A stretch of 48,275 nucleotides of DNA from an uncultured Candidatus Sericytochromatia bacterium (GTDB lineage: Bacteria > Cyanobacteriota > Sericytochromatia > UBA7694 > JACMQJ01), in NCBI GenBank assembly GCA_964422885.1, contig CAYRDV010000001.1:1-48275 (forward strand), given 5' to 3'. This document shows, one piece after another, positions 4,391 to 47,541 of the stretch. Both the position numbers and the translations under genes were made by a program. The notes under the pieces were generated by a model. That model was not told where the DNA came from. It ran no database searches and was given only the letters and a program-made list of their open reading frames with translations. How positions within the stretch are numbered: position 1 is the first letter of the stretch; the number at the start of each line of letters is the position of its first letter.

Positions 4391-5065
4391 TTACTTTGCA
4401 GCAGGAGCTGGGCTAGCTGGTGCAGCTGGATCAGCGGGTGCTGGAGCTGGTGCAGCTGGATCAGCAGGTGCTGGTGGAGGAGCAGGTGGTGTATTTGGAA
4501 TATGATTCATTGCAATATCAGCGAATACATTTTCAAACTCTGATTTACTCAACTTATCTTTTGTTCCTTTGTTGAATATTTTACCTGGTTTTTCTTTGTC
4601 ATACTTTTTGAACATATCATTGAAAGCAGTGGAAACTAAACCACTTGATAATTCATCATGTGAAATATAACCGTCTCTGCCAGTATCTAACTGTTTAAAC
4701 AGTGAACTTGCAGCTGATCTTAATCTAAAGTTAAGACCTATTCTCTTGAAAAAACCAGGCATCATTTCTTTTAAGGTAATCTTACCATCATGATTATCAT
4801 CAAGAGCATAAAATGCTTTTGCTGAATCAGGAGTAGCAACACCATACTCTTCAGGAGTAATCATTTTGTTTTTGTCTTTGTCTAATTCTTTGAAAGCATG
4901 TGTACTGGCATCTTGTATAATTTTGGCAACACCCATAACTGATTCTGACTGAACTGAATTGTCAACTTCTGGTGCAAGTATTGGTGCAGTGCTTGAACCA
5001 CATGCAGTTAATGAACTTACTGCAAATACGCTTAAAGCAACCATCGCAACTGTCTTCTTCAACAT
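4391..5065 (-). CDS. Lipoprotein with three EF-hand Ca-binding loops and a Pro/Ala-rich C-terminal tail
   Basis: AGGAG Shine-Dalgarno and a signal peptide ending in the lipobox LTAC. EF-hand loops are DKDKNKMITPEE, DDNHDGKITLKE and DTGRDGYISHDE. The tail is PPAPPPAPADPAAPAPAPADPAAPASPAPAAK. Confidence 0.7.
   Translation of the reverse strand: MLKKTVAMVALSVFAVSSLTACGSSTAPILAPEVDNSVQSESVMGVAKIIQDASTHAFKELDKDKNKMITPEEYGVATPDSAKAFYALDDNHDGKITLKEMMPGFFKRIGLNFRLRSAASSLFKQLDTGRDGYISHDELSSGLVSTAFNDMFKKYDKEKPGKIFNKGTKDKLSKSEFENVFADIAMNHIPNTPPAPPPAPADPAAPAPAPADPAAPASPAPAAK
4415..4474. repeat. Two tandem 30-nt copies (one mismatch) inside the EF-hand lipoprotein gene
   Basis: AGCTGGTGCAGCTGGATCAGC(G/A)GGTGCTGG occurs at 4415-4444 and 4445-4474. 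It encodes the duplicated PAPADPAAPA segment. Confidence 0.85.
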
Positions 5066-6452: not shown

Positions 6453-6911
6453 ATGAATATTTTTGAAATATTAAAAAAAGATCATAAAACCGTTTCTGAT
6501 CTAATGAATAAACTTGAGCCAACAATACATAGAGTATTTAAAAACAGAGATGAATTATTTAATCGGATAAAAATGGAGTTAAATATTCATTCTGAACTGG
6601 AAGAAAAACTATTTTATTCCGAATTAAAAAATTACCTTGAAACAAAGTATCTTATTGATAATTCATTGGTTGAACATAATAAAATTCATAATTTACTTAA
6701 TGAATTAACTCTAATCTCTAAAGATAGTGATAAATGGAGTGAAAAATTACATCAGTTAAAACAATGTATAGAGCATCATGTAAATGAAGAAGAACATGAG
6801 TTATTTTCACAAGCTAAGTTGGTACTAAGTCAGGAACAAATAATGGAAATGGGTCTTCAATTTAGAATTGAAAAAGATAAATTATTACACTCTACAAGCA
6901 AATTAAAATAA
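6453..6911 (+). CDS. Hemerythrin-like (HHE cation-binding) domain protein
   Basis: Strong Shine-Dalgarno AGAGGAGG. ILKKDHKTVSDLMNKL, HSELEEKLFY and EHHVNEEEHELF match the H / HxxxE / HxxxE pattern of hemerythrin-like domains. Confidence 0.7.
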   Translation: MNIFEILKKDHKTVSDLMNKLEPTIHRVFKNRDELFNRIKMELNIHSELEEKLFYSELKNYLETKYLIDNSLVEHNKIHNLLNELTLISKDSDKWSEKLHQLKQCIEHHVNEEEHELFSQAKLVLSQEQIMEMGLQFRIEKDKLLHSTSKLK

Positions 6912-16696: not shown

Positions 16697-16748
16697 ATTA
16701 ATTTTTTATTATTCCTCATAAATATTAGACAGCTAAATTTTTAAATTT

Positions 16749-17711
16749 TTAAACCTCCGTTACTTTAAAAATGTCATAAAGTGCATCCTTAAATTCTTTT
16801 AAATCAACATTACTGTCCTGATAATGCTCTTTTATATTATTAACAAGGGTTTTGATGGATTTATCCAGTTCAGGATATACTTCCTGTTCCGTTTGAAATT
16901 TAAAAAGAGTGGCATATTCAGTAAAAATATCTTTTACTGATAAATTATTCTTAAATTTTAATTTTAATAATCTTTTTTGTTTGCTTTCTAAGGTATTAAA
17001 GCATGATTCAAATACTTGTTTTACTTCTGTATTTGTATAATCTGAATCATAAATTTCTATTTCTTTTTGGGTTTCATTTCCATTTTCATTAATAATGTCC
17101 AATGTTTCTGTTTTTTTATTTTTTGAAAATTGTGAGTAAAGATGTTGCCAGGCTTTATCATTACCATCACTTTTTAGCAGAGTTTCAATTCTCTCAAAAC
17201 TCTTTAACGTACAATCCTTATCTATTCCAAGCCTTTCAAGTTTCTCAACAGCATTATCTACATCAGAGCTTCGGCATAATACTTTATAAACTTTTTTATC
17301 TGTTTCAGTTGTATCTTTTAAGGCAACAGGAATATTTATTTTTCCATGTTTGGTAATAAAGTAATCACTGTATATGAAATTAAGACAAGCTGTAATATAG
17401 GTCTTTAGCGAACTTTTTCCCTGGTATTTAGCTATTCTTGTTTTTAAGGCATTAAAAATATATACATACAAATCAAGGCCTTCTTCGCAGGTTGAACCAG
17501 AGTCAGTTAAAGTCTTTTTATTTCTGATTATTTCTGCTGCACAGTCCTTTGTTTCAGAAATTATTCTACATGTTTTTCTGCACCAGGAAATAATATTGGA
17601 AAGGATATAATCTGAATATTGATTGACAAACTGATTCCAGGCATGACTATCACCTTGAGCAATCATACTTGCAAGGTTTTTATCTGGTTTATATCTTTCA
17701 AAAAACTGCAT
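16749..17711 (-). CDS. Atypical extended ECF-like sigma factor with a Cys-containing insertion in region 2
   Basis: AWNQFVNQYSDYILSNI is region-2.1-like. KYQGKSSLKTYITACLNFIYSDYF is region-2.2/2.4-like. ESKQKRLLKLKFKNNLSVKDIFTEYA is region-4-like. At 320 aa it is much longer than canonical ECF sigmas. Confidence 0.45.
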   Translation of the reverse strand: MQFFERYKPDKNLASMIAQGDSHAWNQFVNQYSDYILSNIISWCRKTCRIISETKDCAAEIIRNKKTLTDSGSTCEEGLDLYVYIFNALKTRIAKYQGKSSLKTYITACLNFIYSDYFITKHGKINIPVALKDTTETDKKVYKVLCRSSDVDNAVEKLERLGIDKDCTLKSFERIETLLKSDGNDKAWQHLYSQFSKNKKTETLDIINENGNETQKEIEIYDSDYTNTEVKQVFESCFNTLESKQKRLLKLKFKNNLSVKDIFTEYATLFKFQTEQEVYPELDKSIKTLVNNIKEHYQDSNVDLKEFKDALYDIFKVTEV

Positions 17712-17833
17712 TACTTTTATGTTTTCGTAAAGTAATCGAATTAACTAAAAGTTTATCAGAAAATCAATTAATGTTTTAAAAATTAATCAGCAGAGTAACA
17801 GAAAAGCCACCTAAAACTCTTAAAAATAAATTT

Positions 17834-17868
17834 AAAAGGTTTCACTATAGACTATGGTGAAACCTTTT
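17834..17868 (-). terminator. Rho-independent terminator of the cupin / cNMP-HDO operon
   Basis: GGTTTCAC (17838-17845) pairs with GTGAAACC (17857-17864), flanked by AAAA and TTTT. It lies 12 nt downstream of the minus-strand stop at 17880. Confidence 0.65.
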
Positions 17869-17879
17869 ATAATAATTAC

Positions 17880-19022
17880 TTAGTTTTCTAACTTTGGATT
17901 ATATTGCATTGCCCGTTCATACATCCAGTCCCAGAATGAGGCCCGTAATGCTAAAGCCTTCCTCATCCCTTTTGCCAGTTCACGTCTTGATTGTTCAGTC
18001 TGTGCGTAATATTTTGCTATATTAAGCAATGTTGCCTGATGATGATCATCTACTGCTGTATGTAAAGGGAAAAATACCATATCACGTGGATCTAAGCCAG
18101 GTATACTTTGCAAAGCCTTAACAAATGGTTTGTAAAGATCACGTACAATACCCTCAGTACCAAGGCCAAGTGCTCCAATTGCTTCTGCTGGTGAACCACC
18201 AAGTACACTAAGAAACATTTCACGCCAGCAAACAACTTCAATTGAATCATCTTCAATAGCACTGTCTACTACACCAAGCGCATTTCTGAAGCGTTGAAAT
18301 AGTTTCGGATGTGGAATACCAACAATCCATTCGGCTTCAATACCAAATTCAGCCAGTTCCTGAATCTCTTCTTCACCATATACTCCAGATTCTTCTGTCA
18401 GGTTTTCGAGCAGGGCAGAACGATGGTCAGGTTTTTCTAGCCTGCTGATAACTGTTGTAAGGTAACGTGGAAAATGAGCAGAATAACCAAAATAATGACG
18501 ACCAAAATCAGCCATAGCCCAGCGTACATCTGGTAATGTCCCTTCAGCCAGAGCTTTTAAATACCGATGATTTACTGCACGATGGTTCCTTGCTTCTTCA
18601 GCCAGGCTTTCGAGATAGTTATCTACATCATCTGAGTCACCAGAACCTTCAAGACGTGTGTGCATACGTAAAGAGACAGCATTTATCCATGAAACGAGCG
18701 CATCAGAGTCATCTGCAAGAGCTCGTAGAAGTGTCTGACGGTCAAGAACACAAACATTTACATTGCCAACAGCCTTTACAGTTGCTGTTCTTGGTCTCCG
18801 ATCCAAAAAGGCAAATTCACCTACAATATCCCCTGCATGTACATAAGAATGAACCTTATCTTTACTATTTACTTCAACTTTGCCATCTTCAATAAGAAAT
18901 AATCTTTCATCGAAATCGCCTTCGCGAATGAATACTTCCCCGTCAGAGAGCTCTTTTATTGTACCTACGGATCTTACGCGGTTTACAACATTTTCAGGAA
19001 AAGCAGAAATCCATGTTGTCAT
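17880..19022 (-). CDS. Cyclic-nucleotide-binding domain fused to a heme-oxygenase-like (iron-containing redox enzyme / HDO-type) domain
   Basis: N-terminus: GDIVGEFAFLDRRPRTATVKAVG is the CAP/cNMP phosphate-binding-cassette-like motif. C-terminus: ENLTEESG...HPKLFQRF and HTAVDDHH (H-x3-D-x2-H) resemble di-iron ligand motifs of the CADD/PqqC-like heme-oxygenase fold. Confidence 0.65.
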   Translation of the reverse strand: MTTWISAFPENVVNRVRSVGTIKELSDGEVFIREGDFDERLFLIEDGKVEVNSKDKVHSYVHAGDIVGEFAFLDRRPRTATVKAVGNVNVCVLDRQTLLRALADDSDALVSWINAVSLRMHTRLEGSGDSDDVDNYLESLAEEARNHRAVNHRYLKALAEGTLPDVRWAMADFGRHYFGYSAHFPRYLTTVISRLEKPDHRSALLENLTEESGVYGEEEIQELAEFGIEAEWIVGIPHPKLFQRFRNALGVVDSAIEDDSIEVVCWREMFLSVLGGSPAEAIGALGLGTEGIVRDLYKPFVKALQSIPGLDPRDMVFFPLHTAVDDHHQATLLNIAKYYAQTEQSRRELAKGMRKALALRASFWDWMYERAMQYNPKLEN

Positions 19023-19537
19023 AATATATCTCCTTTTTTTTCAATTGAATCTGCCCCACCTTCACGAAGGCGGGTCCGGCGATCATAATCACCTAAAACA
19101 GCTGATGTAAAACCGAAATCTGTTATTGCAAGAAGTACAAGAGTTACATTACCGGTATTAATTGTTTGGTGAAACAGCCAGCGTGGAACAAAAGCTATTC
19201 CACCATTTTTTAAAGGAACCCGGGCTTCACCAATTAAAACTTCGCCTTCTCCCTCCAAAGCTACAAATATTGTTTCATGTGCATGACGATGCCGTTCATT
19301 GTTCCGGCCAGGAGGAATCCGTACAATACGTGGATCCATTGTTTGTAGCCCAGGAAATGCTAAGCGTTCAACATTAAATTCAATATTAAGCTTTTCATTG
19401 TGGTTTGAATACATCATATTGCTGACTGAATCAGAATTTCGGACAAATTCTGATGGCTGTGTTGATTCAACAGGGGGGGTACGTGAGGCAGCTACTTTAA
19501 CAAGATTTAACACCTCTTCTGTCATTACGTCATTCAT
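19019..19537 (-). CDS. Cupin-domain protein (cupin_2-like metal site)
   Basis: Cupin motif 1 is GRNNERHRHAHETIFVALEGEG and motif 2 is GGIAFVPRWLFHQTIN. Its TGA overlaps the ATG of the downstream gene (ATGA at 19019-19022). Confidence 0.75.
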   Translation of the reverse strand: MNDVMTEEVLNLVKVAASRTPPVESTQPSEFVRNSDSVSNMMYSNHNEKLNIEFNVERLAFPGLQTMDPRIVRIPPGRNNERHRHAHETIFVALEGEGEVLIGEARVPLKNGGIAFVPRWLFHQTINTGNVTLVLLAITDFGFTSAVLGDYDRRTRLREGGADSIEKKGDIL

Positions 19538-19818
19538 AGTAAATCTCCTTTATTGCTTATAAAGCGTTAATAGTCAATTATAAAACTATTGCTACATTAG
19601 ATATTTAATTTGATTCACCAAATCAGGCGGCCTCATATTACGAGGAGTAATTCAGAAATTTTTGTTATATACTTCCTGATTTGTCAAAGGATTTTGACTT
19701 TAACGATACTGAGATCAGGAGTAAATATAACAAGTGGAATTATATCAGAATAACCTTTAAAAGGATATCTGATTAAATATTAAAAAATTAATTTTTAAGA
19801 TATTTATTATTTGAGTAT

Positions 19819-22588: not shown

Positions 22589-23359
22589 ATGACATCTGAA
22601 AAATCAAAGTTTAACCCAACCAACAGGTTTTCCAACCGGGTTGAAAATTATATAAAATATAGACCCGGTTATCCTGCTGAAATTATAAATTTTTTAAAGT
22701 TAGAATTAAAGCTTTTATCTTCGGATATAATTGCTGATATTGGCTCGGGCACTGGTATTTCTTCTGAGTTATTTTTAAAAAATGGAAATAAAGTTATTGG
22801 TATTGAACCAAATGATGAAATGAGATTAGCAGGGGAAAACCTCCTTCGGAAATATTCTGACTTTACCAGTATTATTGGAACTGCTGAAGCAACTGGTTTA
22901 TCTAACCATTCTATTGATTTTATTGTTTCTGGTCAGGCTTTTCACTGGTTTAACCCGGAAAAAACAAAAACTGAGTTTAAGAGAATTCTTAAACCAGAAG
23001 GCGTTAGCATTTTATTGTGGAATTCAAGAAAATTGGATTCAACTCCCTTTCTTGTTGCCTATGAAGATTTACTAAATAAATATGCTACTGATTATAAAGA
23101 GATTTATCATCGTAACTCCTTTCAAGATTTAAATTCATTTTTTGAAAATGGTTATCAGCAAAAGACTTTTGAAAATTATCAGCTTTTTAATTATCATTCA
23201 CTAAAAGGAAGACTCTTATCTTCTTCATATGTTCCATTAGAAGGCGATGAAAATTATGAAAAAATGCTGGTTGGCTTAAAAGAGATATTTGAAGAATTTA
23301 AAACGGACGAGTTGGTTAAATTTGAATATCTGACAGAAGTTTACTATGGTAAAGTGTAA
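22589..23359 (+). CDS. Class I SAM-dependent methyltransferase
   Basis: Motif I is IADIGSGTGISS and post-I is VIGIEPND. The Methyltransf_11-like motif is DFIVSGQAFHWF. Confidence 0.8.
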   Translation: MTSEKSKFNPTNRFSNRVENYIKYRPGYPAEIINFLKLELKLLSSDIIADIGSGTGISSELFLKNGNKVIGIEPNDEMRLAGENLLRKYSDFTSIIGTAEATGLSNHSIDFIVSGQAFHWFNPEKTKTEFKRILKPEGVSILLWNSRKLDSTPFLVAYEDLLNKYATDYKEIYHRNSFQDLNSFFENGYQQKTFENYQLFNYHSLKGRLLSSSYVPLEGDENYEKMLVGLKEIFEEFKTDELVKFEYLTEVYYGKV

Positions 23360-23549: not shown

Positions 23550-25871
23550 TTAAATAGTTAGGTTATGATAAAACCGGAACGTTTTTTCATCAAGTTCCTC
23601 TTCTTTTCCTAAATAAACTGTTGTTAGTTTATTATTTATTTCTTCCTGCCGGATATCTTCTTCAATTAATAAGTCATGAAATCTTTTCAGTATGGGGTTT
23701 TGCTCTTCAAAATGAAGCTTTAAAAGTTTAAATTTTACTTCCTTTGTTGAATTTACAATAGGATCAACTACATATTTTTGCAGGAAAAAACCTTCTTCTT
23801 CAGTATATGCAAGAGTGTAATGATCTAATTTATGTAAGTATAAAAGTGTTTCTTTGGTAAGTTCCTCAGATTCACAGGGAAATAAATAAGGGTTGAGTTC
23901 CCAGTGTTCTTTATCTTTATAAAAATCAAGATATTTAGGAAACTCTTCAGTACCGGGAATAGGTGTATACATCATAATTTTTGGACTTAAACCAAGGCGC
24001 CAGCCAAATATCATAGTTTTTATTATCTGTTCCAATGTCTGGTTTGGTAAACCAGTCATTATATAAAAACTCATATTTTTATAATTTGCTGCTTTTAGCT
24101 TTTCCACAGTTTCAGTAATGACTCCCAAATGGCTATTAGGACGGTGGAATCTTGTTTTATAAAGATCATATTCTGAAGATTCAATAGGTACATAAAGGGC
24201 ATTTTTAAGTTTAAATTTACTTAAGATTTCAATAAACTGATCATTAATCAATGCAAATTCAAGTCCATAAGAAAAATCGAGGGTAATAGATTCATTATAG
24301 CCATAGTCAATTAAATAATTTAAAAGAACATATAGATTTTCTTTACCAAATAAAAGATTACTATCCCAGAAAATATAATTGGTATATCCCATTGAATAAT
24401 ATTCCTGAAAATGGTTTATTATTGCTTCTTTCTGATATTCTGTTATTTTTCTTCCTTCAAGGTTGGGTACTACACAATATGAGCAGGTTCTTGGACACCC
24501 TTTTATAATACGCATAATTGCGCTGTCTTTTCCGCTGGTAAGTTCTATTAACGGTCTGTAGCTGTCAGCATTATGATAGGGTCCAACATGTACATCTACC
24601 CCAAGTTTTTTCATTTCATCCGGGCACAAGGATGGGTATACTCCCCCAACTGTAATTTTGATATTACCAAATACTTCTTTTATCTTTTCGATTATCTTAG
24701 GTAAATGAGGATAATGAAATGTCATTGTCATAGTTATATAGACTTCATCTATATCCTGTAAAGCTCTGATATATTTTTCAAAATCTTCAAGTGGTTTGCC
24801 ATAGACAAAAAGTTCTGCTTTTGATTTTAATTCTGATTTTTGCCCTTCCCGATAATAGTCGTAAGGTTCAAAATCATAATAGGCCACTTTTTCACCCTGG
24901 TTTACCAAATAGTGGGCGACTCTCAGAAGACCTGAAGGAGAAACAGAAAGCAGATATGAAGTTTCCCAGATATTCCCTGTTTCAGTAATAGAAGGATGTA
25001 TCAGAAGATATTTTTTATGTTCAGATTTTAAATTTTTATCATAATAAAAACCATCATCATCTTTAAGGATTTTGTGGTCTGTCGTTGTTGGAAACAAATT
25101 TGCTGGTATATATTTTATATCGGGATGATTTTTCCATTTTTGCCTAAAAATAGTAAAGTTTATTGGTATTCTGTTTTTTGTAATTTCCTGATTCTCTGCT
25201 CCTTTATCGTAATAAACTATAGTTCTATTACTAATATAGGTTTTAAAGCCTTTTTTAGCTGCCCTAAAACATAAGTCAAAATCTGCAAAAGACAGACAAT
25301 TTTCAAAAATAGTATCAAAACCACCACATTTAGCAATAACTTCCCGGTTTATCAAAGCACAGTAGGCAATTGTAAATGGAATTTCCGAAAAATTAGGATG
25401 GCTACTATTTTCCAGGAATTTATTAAAGTATTCTAGTTGTGGAATGATTTCAATTTTCTCATTAAAATTTACTGAAATATTAGGAAGTAAATCATTGTTG
25501 CATCTTGGTGCGACAATACCTGCATTTTTGTCTGAAAATACCTGTATTAATTTAGATAACCAGTTTTTAGAAACGATAATATGAGGATGAATTATTCCTA
25601 CTATTTGAGATTTCGAGATTTCCAAACCTTTGTTTAGACATGCTGTAAAACTGGTATTTTTATCTTTGGCAACTAAACTTACATTATTATTATTTTGCTT
25701 TAAATGAGTTAGGAAATCTAGTAAATTCCTATCTTCTATCCCATTATCTACAATTATCAAACGAAATGGTAAATCTGTGTTTTTAAAAATAAAATTAATG
25801 CATCTTTTTGTTTGAAAAAAATTATTTGATACAGGAAGTATTAAATCAATAATTTGGTCTTTATTTTGCAT
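23550..25871 (-). CDS. Fusion protein: family-2 glycosyltransferase + B12-binding-like domain + radical SAM domain
   Basis: GT2: LPFRLIIVDNGIEDRN. The Rossmann-like B12-binding-type segment ends ..IKITVGGVYPS. Radical SAM cluster motif is GCPRTCSYCVVP (CxxxCxxC). The listed ORF starts at TTG 25880; the ATG at 25871 is preferred but uncertain. Confidence 0.75.
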   Translation of the reverse strand: MQNKDQIIDLILPVSNNFFQTKRCINFIFKNTDLPFRLIIVDNGIEDRNLLDFLTHLKQNNNNVSLVAKDKNTSFTACLNKGLEISKSQIVGIIHPHIIVSKNWLSKLIQVFSDKNAGIVAPRCNNDLLPNISVNFNEKIEIIPQLEYFNKFLENSSHPNFSEIPFTIAYCALINREVIAKCGGFDTIFENCLSFADFDLCFRAAKKGFKTYISNRTIVYYDKGAENQEITKNRIPINFTIFRQKWKNHPDIKYIPANLFPTTTDHKILKDDDGFYYDKNLKSEHKKYLLIHPSITETGNIWETSYLLSVSPSGLLRVAHYLVNQGEKVAYYDFEPYDYYREGQKSELKSKAELFVYGKPLEDFEKYIRALQDIDEVYITMTMTFHYPHLPKIIEKIKEVFGNIKITVGGVYPSLCPDEMKKLGVDVHVGPYHNADSYRPLIELTSGKDSAIMRIIKGCPRTCSYCVVPNLEGRKITEYQKEAIINHFQEYYSMGYTNYIFWDSNLLFGKENLYVLLNYLIDYGYNESITLDFSYGLEFALINDQFIEILSKFKLKNALYVPIESSEYDLYKTRFHRPNSHLGVITETVEKLKAANYKNMSFYIMTGLPNQTLEQIIKTMIFGWRLGLSPKIMMYTPIPGTEEFPKYLDFYKDKEHWELNPYLFPCESEELTKETLLYLHKLDHYTLAYTEEEGFFLQKYVVDPIVNSTKEVKFKLLKLHFEEQNPILKRFHDLLIEEDIRQEEINNKLTTVYLGKEEELDEKTFRFYHNLTI

Positions 25872-26001
25872 TAAAATCAAATTCTATAAAGAATTGCCTT
25901 TATTTTAGTTTATCATTAATGTTTTAGAAAAGCAATAAACATCTTTTTGCTATTTTTTAAGAAAAAAGTGGTTTTACGTTTAGATTTATCTGATTTTAAG
26001 T

Positions 26002-46167: not shown

Positions 46168-47541
46168 GTGCTTGGAAAAAATCTGGAAACACAACTACCA
46201 AATCCACCAGGTCCGGTGGGTAATTTTATTCTTGGAAGTCTAAAAGAGGTTGCAGTTAACCCGATTCGACTTTTTATGGAATCTACAGATAAATATGGTG
46301 ATATAGTACGCTTTCGTTTTGCAAAACTTGTTGCTTATCTGATAAGTAATCCTGATTATATTAAATACGTTTTTATTGATAATGCTTCAAATTACAGAAA
46401 AGCTTCAACATATAAAAAATTAAAGCCAATACTTGGCGAAGGCCTTCTTACCAGTGAAGGAAACTTATGGCAAAAGCAAAGAAAGTTTTTTCAACCGATT
46501 TTTCAGCGAAATAAAATGGAAGGTTTTTTTGATACAATAACTGATTCAATAAATTTAATGCTTGAAAAGTGGGAATCTTTGGCTCCTGAAGATTCTCTAA
46601 TAGATATATCAGCCGAAATGATGAATGTTACACTTGGGGTTACTACTCAGGCTCTTTTTAGTAAGGATATCAGTAATGAAGCTGTTGAATTACGACAGGC
46701 TTTTACAATTGCATTAGAATATGCGAATCATCGGATGACCTCACTTGTTTCATTTTCAGAATATCTGCCAACCAGTTTTAATAGACGTTATAAAAAGGCT
46801 TATGAAATTTTAGAGCGTTTTGTTTATGACCTAATTTCAGAACGAAAAGGGAAAGAATCTCAATACCACGATCTTTTGTCAACAATGCTTTTTGGTGAAG
46901 TTTCTGCAAAAGATGAAAAAATGAGTGACAAGCAAATTCGTGATGAAATAATGACTTTTATTCTTGCTGGTCATGAAACGACTGCCAATACTCTTTCATG
47001 GGCCTGGTACCTACTTGCAGTGAATCCTGAAGTTAAAAAAAAGCTGGATAATGAATTAAAAATTGTTTTAAATGGTAAAAAACCTACTTATCAGGATTTA
47101 AAAGAATTAAAATATACAGCAATGATTATTCAGGAAGTGATGAGATTATACCCTCCAATATGGATAATTGAAAGAGATGCTTTACAGGATGATGAAATAG
47201 GTGGATATTTTATACCTGCTGGAGCAATGATGATGCTTAGCCCATATGTTACTCACCATAGCCCTTTATTATGGGAAAAGCCTGAGGAGTTTATTCCAGA
47301 AAGGTTTTTACCTGAACTAATCGCAAAAAGGGCAAAATTTGCTTATTTTCCTTTTGGAGGAGGTTCAAGGCAGTGTATTGGTAACCATTTTGCGATGATG
47401 GAGGCACAACTTCTGATTGCTATTATTGCTCAAAAATTTGATTTTGAACTTGATAAAAACCATTTAGTCGAAAAAGAATCAGTAATAACTTTAAGACCCA
47501 AATATGGAATAAAAATGAAAATTCATAAAAGACTCAAATGA
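46168..47541 (+). CDS. Cytochrome P450
   Basis: GTG start retains the PPGP hinge. I-helix AGHETT, ExxR EVMRLYPP, and heme-Cys loop FPFGGGSRQCIGNHFA. Confidence 0.9.
   Translation: MLGKNLETQLPNPPGPVGNFILGSLKEVAVNPIRLFMESTDKYGDIVRFRFAKLVAYLISNPDYIKYVFIDNASNYRKASTYKKLKPILGEGLLTSEGNLWQKQRKFFQPIFQRNKMEGFFDTITDSINLMLEKWESLAPEDSLIDISAEMMNVTLGVTTQALFSKDISNEAVELRQAFTIALEYANHRMTSLVSFSEYLPTSFNRRYKKAYEILERFVYDLISERKGKESQYHDLLSTMLFGEVSAKDEKMSDKQIRDEIMTFILAGHETTANTLSWAWYLLAVNPEVKKKLDNELKIVLNGKKPTYQDLKELKYTAMIIQEVMRLYPPIWIIERDALQDDEIGGYFIPAGAMMMLSPYVTHHSPLLWEKPEEFIPERFLPELIAKRAKFAYFPFGGGSRQCIGNHFAMMEAQLLIAIIAQKFDFELDKNHLVEKESVITLRPKYGIKMKIHKRLK

What the first reader, a model, noticed from the sequence alone, without database searches (positions are those of the whole stretch)
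17880..19537. Translationally coupled cupin + cNMP-binding/heme-oxygenase-like di-iron protein with atypical composition
The cupin gene's TGA overlaps the ATG of the next gene (ATGA, 19019-19022), and a clean terminator follows the pair. The second protein fuses a CAP-type cyclic-nucleotide-binding domain to a heme-oxygenase-like domain. That domain carries an H-x3-D-x2-H string (HTAVDDHH) as in the CADD/PqqC-like di-iron fold. Heme-oxygenase-like di-iron oxidases (HDOs such as SznF, UndA, BesC) perform unusual oxidations. SznF itself combines an HDO with a cupin domain to build an N-N bond. A split HDO + cupin pair gated by a cyclic nucleotide would be an uncommon regulated oxidase module. 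Both proteins are visibly richer in Arg/Ala/Asp/Glu and poorer in Lys/Asn/Ile than their neighbours. My hand counts of several 60-nt lines gave roughly 43-47% G+C here against much lower values in nearby intergenic and hypothetical genes. Horizontal acquisition is therefore possible.
Basis: partly seen in the sequence, partly recalled or inferred. Interest (0 to 1): 0.6.

Follow-up and report, generated by a model that had tools for sequence, protein, structure and literature searches.

The report
Cyclic-nucleotide-gated di-iron oxidase with cupin partner
Two overlapping, co-transcribed genes encode a small metal-binding cupin and a heme-oxygenase-like di-iron oxidase fused to a cyclic-nucleotide sensor; this uncharacterised enzyme pair is conserved across many bacterial phyla and reached this genome by horizontal transfer.

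Summary
On the minus strand, a 172-aa Cupin_2 gene (19537..19019) overlaps by ATGA a 380-aa gene (19022..17880) that fuses a cNMP-binding domain to a Haem_oxygenas_2 (HDO) domain. A strong hairpin follows the pair. The phosphate-binding cassette is intact. All six HDO metal ligands (E211, H238, E290, H321, D325, H328) are invariant in 39 homologues and align to the CADD ligands. The fold is CADD/BesC-like, not SznF-, PqqC- or TenA-like.

The pairing is not local. In 43 of 80 species genomes the orthologous cupin lies next to the HDO, and cupin–HDO and HDO–cupin fusion proteins exist. In other lineages the partners are a SAM methyltransferase and a BBOX-like TauD dioxygenase. In protists these are fused to the HDO behind EF-hands.

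Aquifer metatranscriptome contigs cover both genes and the junction.

The raised G+C comes from amino-acid composition (GC1), not synonymous sites. Horizontal transfer is still supported. The host is a Sericytochromatia relative, the sister sequence is acidobacterial, and Arg codons are 79% CGN against 26% elsewhere in the window.

Substrate and chemistry remain unknown, and I found no publication on this family.

The parts
19019..19537 (-). Cupin gene, 172 aa. A single-domain metal cupin with the family-invariant residues H83, H85, H87, E88 and H123, and a conserved N-terminal helix.
   Evidence: ORF. Cupin_2 at 4e-15. Invariant residues in 29 orthologues. AF2 model with pLDDT 84.7, a beta-barrel. 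Foldseek finds monocupins such as TM1459 and salicylate/gentisate dioxygenases.
17880..19022 (-). cNMP-binding / heme-oxygenase-like di-metal oxidase gene, 380 aa.
   Evidence: ORF. Pfam PF00027 and PF14518. AF2 pLDDT 92.3. Foldseek finds CADD and BesC for the C-terminal domain and PKA-R/CRP for the N-terminal domain.
18648..18995 (-). Cyclic-nucleotide-binding domain (residues ~10-125). The phosphate-binding cassette GEFAFLDRRPRTATV is encoded at 18771-18821.
   Evidence: cNMP_binding covers residues 23-104. E69, A71 and F72 are invariant, and R76, P77 and R78 are >=90% conserved. Best PDB sequence hits are PKA-R, PKG and PycTIR CNB domains, at 9e-19 to 7e-16.
17907..18626 (-). HDO domain (residues ~133-372). 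Ligands are E211, H238, E290, H321, D325 and H328. HTAVDDHH is at 18039-18062. An insertion of about 20 aa lies between E211 and H238.
   Evidence: All six ligands are invariant. The residue-by-residue alignment to CADD gives E81, H88, H174, D178 and H181, and the profile alignment gives E142. TM-score to CADD is 0.82-0.85 and to BesC 0.82.
19019..19022 (-). ATGA stop/start overlap between the cupin and HDO genes. The internal SD AAGGAG is at 19030-19035.
   Evidence: Sequence. The same 4-bp overlap occurs in orthologous pairs: the P0004 contig, L086 and L088.
17820..17869 (-). Intrinsic-terminator-like hairpin plus U-rich tail, starting 10 nt after the HDO stop codon.
   Evidence: Fold at -15.8 kcal/mol, z -3.95. 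Metatranscriptome contigs stop at 17911/17940 and none cover 16700-17878.
19538..19818 (-). 281-nt upstream intergenic leader/promoter region. The SD AAGGAG is at 19545-19550 and a TTGACA-N18-AAAAAT promoter-like site is at 19658-19687.
   Evidence: Promoter scan, which is at chance level overall. RNA contigs reach 19663 and 19775. No Rfam match. The fold z of -2.4 is not compelling.

Best explanation
The two genes form one operon, and probably one complex, encoding a two-metalloenzyme oxidase module.

The larger protein is a CADD/BesC-type heme-oxygenase-like di-metal (Fe2 or Fe/Mn) oxidase. Its N-terminus carries a canonical cyclic-nucleotide-binding domain. The smaller protein is a mononuclear-metal cupin with a His-rich site.

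Proposed mechanism:
1. Binding of cAMP or cGMP to the N-terminal domain allosterically switches the HDO domain on or off. This step is inferred.
2. The HDO uses O2 at its 3-His/3-carboxylate site to oxidise a small, polar, probably amino-acid-derived metabolite. The reaction would be N-oxygenation or BesC-like oxidative C-C/C-N fragmentation. This is inferred from the family.
3. The cupin performs the preceding or following oxidative or rearrangement step. This is inferred from adjacency and fusions.

Shown here: the gene structure, the domains, the intact ligand and nucleotide-binding residues, the fold, in-situ transcription, pair conservation, fusion proteins, and horizontal origin shared with a low-GC acidobacterial lineage.

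Not shown: the metal content, the nucleotide identity, the substrate and the product.
For: - Domains and ligands.
- Cupin metal residues invariant in 29 orthologues.
- Pair conservation: the cupin orthologue (47-66% id) lies within 400 bp on the same strand in 43 of 80 species loci, and 67 of 80 have a cupin and/or MT/TauD partner.
- Rosetta-stone fusions: cupin-HDO in L069:4565-5806 (413 aa); HDO-cupin in P0399 / WP_164018999.1 of Pyxidicoccus trucidator; HDO-MT, and EF-hand-HDO-MT-TauD in eukaryotes including Lacrimia lanifica.
- A sensor domain for a different second messenger (EF-hand/Ca2+) occupies the same N-terminal position as the CNB domain. This supports a regulatory role.
- Transcription: 100%-identical metatranscriptome contigs cover both genes, and one spans the junction at 18795-19154.
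- The window cupin and HDO have the same two nearest relatives, L004 then L005. The pair therefore moved as a unit.
Against: - No biochemical data exist for any member, and I found no paper.
- The CNB domain is absent in 29 of 77 scorable homologues, and its state changes at least 9 times on the tree. Gating is therefore dispensable for catalysis.
- The marine Planctomycetota clade has no cupin nearby, so the cupin is not an obligate partner.
- No nucleotide cyclase is present in the window, and the rest of the genome could not be searched.
- RNA evidence comes from assembled contigs, which may contain DNA carry-over.
- Contexts beyond the pair are heterogeneous: HPP membrane protein, globin, multihaem cytochromes.
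Confidence: 0.65

Rival explanations
1. SznF-like chemistry in trans. The HDO N-hydroxylates a guanidine or amine substrate. The cupin then rearranges it to an N-nitroso / N-N product, or releases NO or nitrite.
For: - It has the same two domain types as SznF: an HDO plus a His-ligated cupin (PMC13108848; PMC10849742).
- In picocyanobacteria a SAM methyltransferase follows the pair, which recalls the SznE/SznF logic.
- In the closest relatives the pair is followed by an HPP-family membrane protein. That family is known from my own knowledge as a nitrite transporter. In another relative it is followed by a globin.
Against: - SznF chains are absent from phmmer hits for the HDO domain and the cupin at E <= 10, and from the HDO-profile hits at E <= 10.
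- SznF is not among the 60 listed cupin-profile hits, out of 81 at E <= 1.
- SznF is not in the top 50 Foldseek matches of either model.
- The nearest HDOs are BesC and CADD.
- The cupin site is H-x-H-x-H-E...H rather than SznF's 3-His. There is no NRPS or other biosynthetic-cluster context, and no methyltransferase orthologue next to the pair in this window.
Confidence: 0.12
2. CADD-type self-sacrificing 4-aminobenzoate (folate precursor) synthase carrying an added sensor domain.
For: CADD is the best structural match (TM 0.82-0.85). It is also among the best sequence matches (TIGR04305 at 2.3e-13; 1rcw and 8va9).
Against: - The TIGR04305 score is 50.3 against a cutoff of 200.
- In the printed alignment, CADD Tyr27 corresponds to the invariant Leu155 here.
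- The family has dedicated enzyme partners (cupin, MT, TauD) that CADD lacks.
- There is a ~20-aa insertion between the first two ligands.
Confidence: 0.03
3. Non-enzymatic signalling protein. This would be a CRP-like cAMP receptor, as JGI names it, or a di-iron O2/Fe/NO sensor whose output is protein-protein interaction.
For: JGI annotation reads 'CRP-like cAMP-binding protein'. The neighbourhood is rich in signalling genes: a sigma-like/anti-sigma-like pair, a giant Ser/Thr kinase and a GGDEF protein.
Against: - There is no HTH or other DNA-binding domain. The C-terminus is a full HDO with all catalytic ligands invariant.
- Fusions to a methyltransferase and a TauD dioxygenase place the HDO in a metabolic pathway.
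- Many orthologues lack the CNB domain altogether.
Confidence: 0.05
4. The pair is native to the lineage, and its odd composition only reflects a conserved amino-acid sequence. There was no horizontal transfer.
For: GC3 is 0.247 and 0.237, inside the window's distribution of 0.226 +/- 0.038. The G+C excess is confined to GC1, with z of 3.3 and 2.8.
Against: - Host LigA is closest to named Candidatus Sericytochromatia proteins (64% and 59%) and at most 69% to anything.
- The HDO is 76-79% identical to, and sister (SH-aLRT 95) of, a protein on a contig whose M17 peptidase is acidobacterial.
- It does not group with the picocyanobacterial clade.
- Arg codons are CGN in 34 of 43 cases in the pair, against 123 of 479 elsewhere (Fisher 5e-12). 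This matches the CGN preference of the acidobacterial contig (73%).
- Both genes rank lowest of 35 for synonymous-codon likelihood.
Confidence: 0.15

Closest known systems
BesC (4-chloro-allylglycine synthase, PDB 7TWA), an HDO that fragments an amino acid
   Same: It is the best profile match among solved structures (E 5e-11), with TM-score 0.82. It has the same 3-His/3-carboxylate ligand pattern on three core helices. It also works alongside Fe/2OG enzymes, as this family does in other genomes.
   Different: Identity is only ~18%. The NCBIfam BesC model scores 25.6 against a cutoff of 500. BesC has no CNB domain, no cupin partner and no insertion between ligands 1 and 2.
CADD / CT610 4-aminobenzoate synthase (PDB 1RCW, 8VA9, 8VAG)
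   Same: It is the best structural match (TM 0.82-0.85). All six metal ligands align: E81, H88, E142, H174, D178 and H181 correspond to E211, H238, E290, H321, D325 and H328.
   Different: The sacrificial Tyr27 position is Leu155 here. TIGR04305 scores 50 against a cutoff of 200. This family has an extra N-terminal sensor domain and dedicated partner enzymes.
SznF (streptozotocin N-nitrosourea synthase)
   Same: It combines an HDO domain and a His-ligated cupin domain that act consecutively on one substrate (PMC13108848). Relatives of the window pair also occur as single HDO-cupin polypeptides.
   Different: There is no detectable sequence relationship for either domain. The window version is split into two genes. 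It has no SznF N-terminal domain, carries a CNB domain, and is not in a natural-product cluster.
CNB-domain enzymes and effectors (PKA-R/PKG, CRP, the EAL enzyme Bd1971, Pycsar PycTIR)
   Same: It has a canonical CNB beta-barrel with G-E...R-T-A phosphate-binding cassette at the N-terminus of an output domain.
   Different: The output domain is an HDO. I could not find that combination described.
Gentisate/salicylate 1,2-dioxygenases and the TM1459 Mn cupin
   Same: These are the nearest relatives of the cupin by sequence profile (3.5e-10) and by fold. They share a His-only or His-rich metal site.
   Different: The window protein is a monocupin of 172 aa, against bicupins of ~350 aa. NCBIfam gentisate dioxygenase scores 27 against a cutoff of 442. 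The H-x-H-x-H-E motif is unusual, and there is a conserved N-terminal helical extension.

Membership tests
Heme-oxygenase-like di-metal oxidases (HDO; Pfam PF14518) | Match to PF14518 above the gathering score | tested here: met
   75.3 bits against a cutoff of 28.9, covering residues 173-360.
Heme-oxygenase-like di-metal oxidases (HDO; Pfam PF14518) | All-helical heme-oxygenase-like fold | tested here: met
   AF2 pLDDT 92.3. Foldseek TM 0.82-0.85 to CADD and 0.82 to BesC.
Heme-oxygenase-like di-metal oxidases (HDO; Pfam PF14518) | Three His plus three carboxylate ligands on three core helices (E, H / E / H-x3-D/E-x2-H) | tested here: met
   E211, H238, E290, H321, D325 and H328 are invariant in A1 (39 sequences) and A3 (18 sequences), and align to the CADD ligands.
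Heme-oxygenase-like di-metal oxidases (HDO; Pfam PF14518) | Binds two metal ions and activates O2 | not testable with these tools
   This needs purified protein, with ICP-MS, Mossbauer or stopped-flow measurements.
CADD-type 4-aminobenzoate synthase (TIGR04305) | Score above the model cutoff, and the sacrificial Tyr27 | tested here: not met
   50.3 bits against a cutoff of 200. Tyr27 aligns to the invariant Leu155.
BesC (NF042919) | Equivalog score | tested here: not met
   25.6 bits against a cutoff of 500, and only the last ligand helix matches.
SznF-type N-nitrosating enzymes | Detectable homology of the HDO and cupin domains to SznF | tested here: not met
   SznF is absent from the PDB phmmer and HDO-profile hit lists at E <= 10. 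It is absent from the 60 listed cupin-profile hits (81 at E <= 1) and from the top 50 fold matches.
SznF-type N-nitrosating enzymes | HDO and cupin act on one substrate as a unit (one polypeptide in SznF) | tested here: inconclusive
   The genes are split here. Adjacency holds in 43 of 80 loci, and fusions exist in both orders in relatives. The chemistry is untested.
   TENA_THI-4 scores 18.3 bits against a cutoff of 22. No PqqC chain appears among the PDB hits. All six ligands are present.
Cyclic-nucleotide-binding domain (PF00027) | Pfam match, beta-barrel fold, and a phosphate-binding cassette with Gly-Glu and Arg-Thr/Ala | tested here: met
   64 bits against a cutoff of 27.5. The cassette reads GEFAFLDRRPRTATV, with E69 invariant and R78 >=90% conserved. 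The fold matches PKA-R, PKG and CRP.
Cyclic-nucleotide-binding domain (PF00027) | Actually binds cAMP/cGMP, and which one | not testable with these tools
   This needs ITC, DSF or a co-crystal structure.
CRP/FNR transcription factors (JGI's name for homologues) | C-terminal helix-turn-helix DNA-binding domain | tested here: not met
   There is no HTH domain, and the C-terminus is an HDO. The CRP model scores 23 against a cutoff of 266.
Cupin_2 metalloproteins (PF07883) | Pfam match, beta-barrel, and conserved His/Glu metal motif | tested here: met
   55.7 bits against a cutoff of 27.2. H83, H85, H87, E88 and H123 are invariant. The model is a barrel with monocupin fold matches.
Gentisate 1,2-dioxygenase | Bicupin of ~350 aa reaching the equivalog score | tested here: not met
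   The protein is a 172-aa monocupin. TIGR02272 scores 27.1 against a cutoff of 442.

The most novel reading that the evidence does not exclude
The pair is the minimal core of an unrecognised, second-messenger-gated oxidative pathway. The full set is an HDO, plus or minus a cupin, plus or minus a SAM methyltransferase, plus or minus a BBOX-like Fe/2OG dioxygenase. It is conserved from groundwater Sericytochromatia and Acidobacteriota to marine and freshwater picocyanobacteria, marine Planctomycetota, Myxococcota and Sphingomonadales. It also reaches diplonemid-type protists, where HDO-MT-TauD are one polypeptide behind EF-hands. The pathway would make or destroy an as yet unknown small metabolite on a cAMP/cGMP signal in bacteria or a Ca2+ signal in eukaryotes. 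That would be the first HDO under direct second-messenger control.
Probability: 0.4. Interest if true: 0.8.

Novelty: new variant of a known kind. Interest (0 to 1): 0.6.

Why it matters
HDOs are a fast-growing enzyme superfamily that performs unusual oxidations, such as N-nitrosation, alkene, alkyne and nitrile formation, and pABA synthesis. Most sequence clusters still have no assigned function (PMC11363339).

This subfamily has 146 clusters at 50% identity with E <= 1e-30. Three features are not described for any characterised HDO:
- a fused cyclic-nucleotide sensor, or EF-hands in eukaryotes;
- a dedicated cupin partner, seen both adjacent and fused;
- alternative methyltransferase/TauD partners.

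The subfamily occurs in ecologically abundant organisms, including Synechococcus/Cyanobium, marine Planctomycetota and diplonemids. An unknown metabolite of environmental relevance may therefore be involved. The conserved partners and fusions give a direct, testable route to the chemistry.

Tried and rejected
- The consensus terminator scan found nothing. The hairpin was recovered only by folding.
- An Rfam scan of the operon and leader gave no match. The leader fold has z of only -2.4.
- I looked for SznF homology by phmmer, profile and fold search and found none.
- My recollection that GrbD/GrbE are a split HDO plus cupin was wrong. GrbD is an SznF homologue whose only shared homology is the cupin domain, and GrbE resembles arginine hydroxylases (PMC9679993). 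Related SznF homologues pair with the heme-dependent ChmN (PMC10849742).
- I considered that the HDO could be the missing DMSHB decarboxylase of DMSP synthesis, because of the MT partner. The known DsyD is an unrelated ureidoglycolate-lyase-like domain, and I have no evidence for the link. I dropped the idea.
- I first read 'GC3 native, therefore ancient ameliorated transfer'. I revised this when the sister lineage turned out to be low-GC itself (GC 37%, GC3 0.22-0.27).
- I tested whether the 37%-GC 'Blastocatellia' contig was misbinned. Its M17 peptidase is acidobacterial.
- The window methyltransferase at 22589-23359 did not group with the family's MT partner in clustering at 1e-8 and 50% coverage. 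I did not compare the two directly.
- The genome search and the fetch from genomes were shut, so I could not search the host genome for cyclases or for MT/TauD.
- Model coordinates are not exposed, so I could not measure ligand geometry or pocket residues.
- Five literature searches found nothing on this architecture.
Full report
**1. Observation**

The window carries two overlapping minus-strand ORFs at exactly the stated coordinates. One is a 172-aa gene at 19537..19019. The other is a 380-aa gene at 19022..17880. The + strand reads TCAT at 19019-19022, which is ATGA on the coding strand.

Each start codon has its own AAGGAG Shine-Dalgarno: 19545-19550 for the cupin and 19030-19035 for the second gene, inside the cupin's last codons.

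Pfam assigns Cupin_2 (4e-15) to the first protein. It assigns cNMP_binding (1.2e-17, residues 23-104) plus Haem_oxygenas_2 (6.6e-21, residues 173-360) to the second. All three are above their gathering scores. HTAVDDHH is encoded at 18039-18062.

The consensus terminator scanner found nothing. However, a 13+3-bp hairpin with a U-rich tail starts 10 nt after the stop codon. It folds at -15.8 kcal/mol, z = -3.95, and 0 of 200 shuffles fold as well.

**2. Is it expressed?**

The sequence is held by groundwater and aquifer metagenomes and by two aquifer metatranscriptome runs. Contigs from those RNA runs match both genes at 100% identity. One contig spans the gene junction (18795-19154). None covers the downstream sigma-like gene region 16700-17878, although DNA runs do.

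This fits one cupin-HDO transcript ending at the hairpin. The caveat is that these are assembled contigs, which have no strand information and could include DNA carry-over.

**3. The larger protein**

An AlphaFold2 model built on 39 homologues is confident (pLDDT 92.3).

- *N-terminal domain.* It matches PKA-R, PKG, CRP and PycTIR cyclic-nucleotide-binding domains by sequence (9e-19 to 7e-16) and by fold. The phosphate-binding cassette reads GEFAFLDRRPRTATV. The ribose-contacting Glu (E69) is invariant, and the phosphate-binding Arg (R78) is at least 90% conserved. There is no DNA-binding domain, so JGI's name 'CRP-like cAMP-binding protein' is misleading.
- *C-terminal domain.* It matches CADD (1RCW and 8VAG, TM 0.82-0.85), BesC (7TWA, 0.82) and the CADD-like Npun_F6505. 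A profile of the HDO domain alone finds only BesC (5e-11), CADD (1e-8), a second 4-aminobenzoate synthase and a TenA/THI-4-annotated DUF. It finds no SznF, UndA, PqqC or TenA proper at E <= 10.
- *Metal ligands.* The printed alignments place E211, H238, E290, H321, D325 and H328 on CADD's E81, H88, E142, H174, D178 and H181. All six are invariant in both alignments.
- *Not a pABA synthase of the CADD kind.* CADD's sacrificial Tyr27 aligns to the invariant Leu155, and the TIGR04305 score is 50 against a cutoff of 200.
- *A family-specific insertion.* About 20 residues lie between E211 and H238. In the BesC alignment this insertion looks like a duplicate of the following helix.

**4. The cupin**

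Twenty-nine orthologues share the invariant residues H83, H85, H87, E88 and H123, together with R70, N80, E81, P118-R119-W120 and D140. The model is a monocupin barrel with a conserved N-terminal helix.

The nearest relatives by sequence are gentisate and salicylate 1,2-dioxygenase domains (3.5e-10). The nearest by fold are generic monocupins such as the 4-His Mn cupin TM1459. All equivalog models fall far below their cutoffs. SznF does not appear.

**5. Is the pairing conserved?**

The HDO has hundreds of homologues at 50-79% identity. A full HMMER scan of 1.84 billion representatives gives 146 clusters at E <= 1e-30.

I examined 80 species-representative genome loci. The results were as follows:

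| Feature | Loci (of 80) |
|---|---|
| Orthologue of the window cupin (47-66% id) within 400 bp on the same strand | 43 |
| Conserved class-I SAM methyltransferase and/or BBOX/TmpA-like TauD dioxygenase within 2 kb (identified) | 36 |
| At least one of these partners | 67 |

The arrangements sort by lineage:

- cupin -> CNB-HDO: the window, Acidobacteriota and some Myxococcota.
- cupin -> CNB-HDO -> MT -> TauD: picocyanobacteria.
- CNB-HDO with convergent TauD and MT and no cupin: marine Planctomycetota.
- HDO without CNB -> cupin: Sphingomonadales, Cyanobium and Myxococcota.

Fusion proteins tie the partners together:

- A 413-aa cupin-HDO in a Cyanobium MAG (L069:4565-5806).
- A 433-aa HDO-cupin in Pyxidicoccus trucidator (WP_164018999.1).
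- A 502-aa HDO-MT.
- 960-1254-aa EF-hand-HDO-MT-TauD proteins from eukaryotic transcriptomes, including the diplonemid Lacrimia lanifica. Their MT and TauD domains are 35-46% and 28-34% identical to the bacterial neighbours.

A Ca2+ sensor therefore occupies the same N-terminal position in eukaryotes that the cNMP sensor occupies in bacteria. This is the best indirect evidence that the N-terminal domain regulates the oxidase.

The CNB domain is optional. Its state changes at least 9 times on the tree.

**6. Other context**

In the closest relatives (76-79% id) the pair keeps the 4-bp overlap. It is followed by an HPP-family membrane protein (L086 and L087) or by a globin and an HDO-cupin fusion. 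More distant relatives sit beside multihaem cytochromes and a Pyr_redox-cNMP-Fer4 protein. These contexts are suggestive of redox or N-oxide chemistry, but they are not consistent.

In the window itself the neighbours are unrelated. They are a sigma-like/anti-sigma-like pair, a lipoprotein, a T2SSE ATPase, and a methyltransferase that did not cluster with the partner MT family. No nucleotide cyclase is present in the window.

**7. Composition and origin**

The pair has the highest G+C in the window, 41.4% and 40.5% against 33.2%. The excess lies in first codon positions (GC1 z = 3.3 and 2.8). Third positions are native-like: GC3 is 0.247 and 0.237, against 0.226 +/- 0.038. The G+C bump is therefore the conserved Arg/Ala/Asp/Glu-rich protein sequence, not a foreign mutational signature.

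Horizontal transfer is nevertheless supported on other grounds:

- *Host identity.* The host's LigA is closest to named Candidatus Sericytochromatia proteins (64% and 59%; at most 69% to anything). This agrees with earlier notes of this scan.
- *Gene tree.* The HDO is sister (SH-aLRT 95) to the protein of a 37%-GC contig. That contig's M17 peptidase is clearly acidobacterial (88% to 'Acidobacteria bacterium' and 55-61% to named Blastocatellia proteins). The window HDO does not group with the picocyanobacterial clade. The cupin has the same two nearest relatives.
- *Arg codons.* In the pair 34 of 43 Arg codons are CGN (14 of 14 in the cupin), against 123 of 479 in the other 33 genes (Fisher 5e-12). 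This matches the CGN preference of the acidobacterial contig's own genes (73%).
- *Codon likelihood.* Both genes rank lowest of 35 for synonymous-codon likelihood.
- *Age.* Four-fold sites still share 52% identity with the acidobacterial orthologue, against 35% expected. The split is therefore old but not saturated.

The direction of transfer and the true donor cannot be fixed.

**8. Mechanism**

*Shown:* an expressed, translationally coupled operon. It encodes a His-rich mononuclear-type cupin and a CADD/BesC-like HDO with a complete di-metal site and an intact cNMP-binding domain. It has been inherited and transferred as a unit, and it is linked to its partners by fusions.

*Inferred:* cNMP binding gates O2-dependent oxidation of a small polar, probably amino-acid-derived substrate by the HDO. 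The cupin catalyses the adjacent step. Sequence favours BesC-like fragmentation or N-oxygenation. SznF-like N-nitrosation remains possible by analogy only.

The substrate, the product, the metal and the nucleotide are all unknown.

**9. Novelty**

I found no publication on a CNB-HDO fusion or on this HDO/cupin/MT/TauD module. It is a new, regulated variant within a known enzyme superfamily, not a new kind of system.

Noticed in passing
P0412, P0428, P0441, P0438, P0493, P0461, P0510: There are 960-1254-aa proteins with the architecture HDO - SAM methyltransferase - TauD, and an N-terminal EF-hand in the three scanned members P0412, P0428 and P0441. Several come from EukProt transcriptomes, for example the diplonemid Lacrimia lanifica. 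They are the eukaryotic single-polypeptide version of the bacterial HDO/MT/TauD gene trio, with a Ca2+ sensor where bacteria have the cNMP sensor.
   Followed up: partly
L069:4565-5806; P0399/P0511 (WP_164018999.1): Natural fusions exist in both orders. One is cupin-HDO (413 aa, Cyanobium MAG). The other is HDO-cupin (433 aa, Pyxidicoccus trucidator). A 411-aa HDO-cupin gene also lies two genes downstream of the pair on the P0004 contig.
   Followed up: partly
80 genome loci: Gene order correlates with domain content. When the HDO carries the CNB domain, the cupin is upstream (14 of 17 loci). When it lacks the domain, the cupin is downstream (23 of 26 loci).
   Followed up: no
window 18309-18389 (HDO residues 212-238): A family-specific insertion of about 20 residues lies between the first Glu and first His ligands. 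HMMER aligns it to the helix that follows the His ligand in BesC. It looks like an internal duplication of that helix.
   Followed up: no
L086:2140-3459, L087:4588-5940: In the two closest low-GC relatives the pair is followed by a 439-450-aa protein with two TM_HPP regions. HPP proteins are known as nitrite transporters in plastids and cyanobacteria (my own knowledge, not tested here).
   Followed up: partly
L089:3735-5855 and the P0023 contig: A 706-780-aa Pyr_redox_2/3 protein with two cNMP-binding domains and a 4Fe-4S dicluster sits near CNB-HDO genes, beside a ~390-aa multihaem cytochrome c. It is another cNMP-linked redox enzyme.
   Followed up: no
L006 (contig CAXQPR010000023.1, labelled Salipiger bermudensis MAG): Its HDO is sister (99*) to that of a Synechococcus genome, and it has the picocyanobacterial gene order cupin-HDO-MT-TauD. 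The contig is probably misbinned.
   Followed up: no
window 19538-19818: The 281-nt intergenic region upstream of the cupin is covered by metatranscriptome contigs up to 19775. This is beyond the only good promoter-like site at 19658-19687. It implies a long leader or read-through from the upstream lipoprotein gene. There is no Rfam match.
   Followed up: partly
window 23550-25880: A 776-aa fusion of a GT2 glycosyltransferase with a B12-binding radical SAM domain.
   Followed up: no
window 6453-6911, 4391-5065, 46168-47541: The same window contains a stand-alone hemerythrin, a bacterial EF-hand protein and a cytochrome P450. The host is rich in signalling proteins, including a 1832-aa kinase-GAF-SpoIIE protein, a GAF-GGDEF protein and an HD-GYP-like HD_5 protein.
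   Followed up: no
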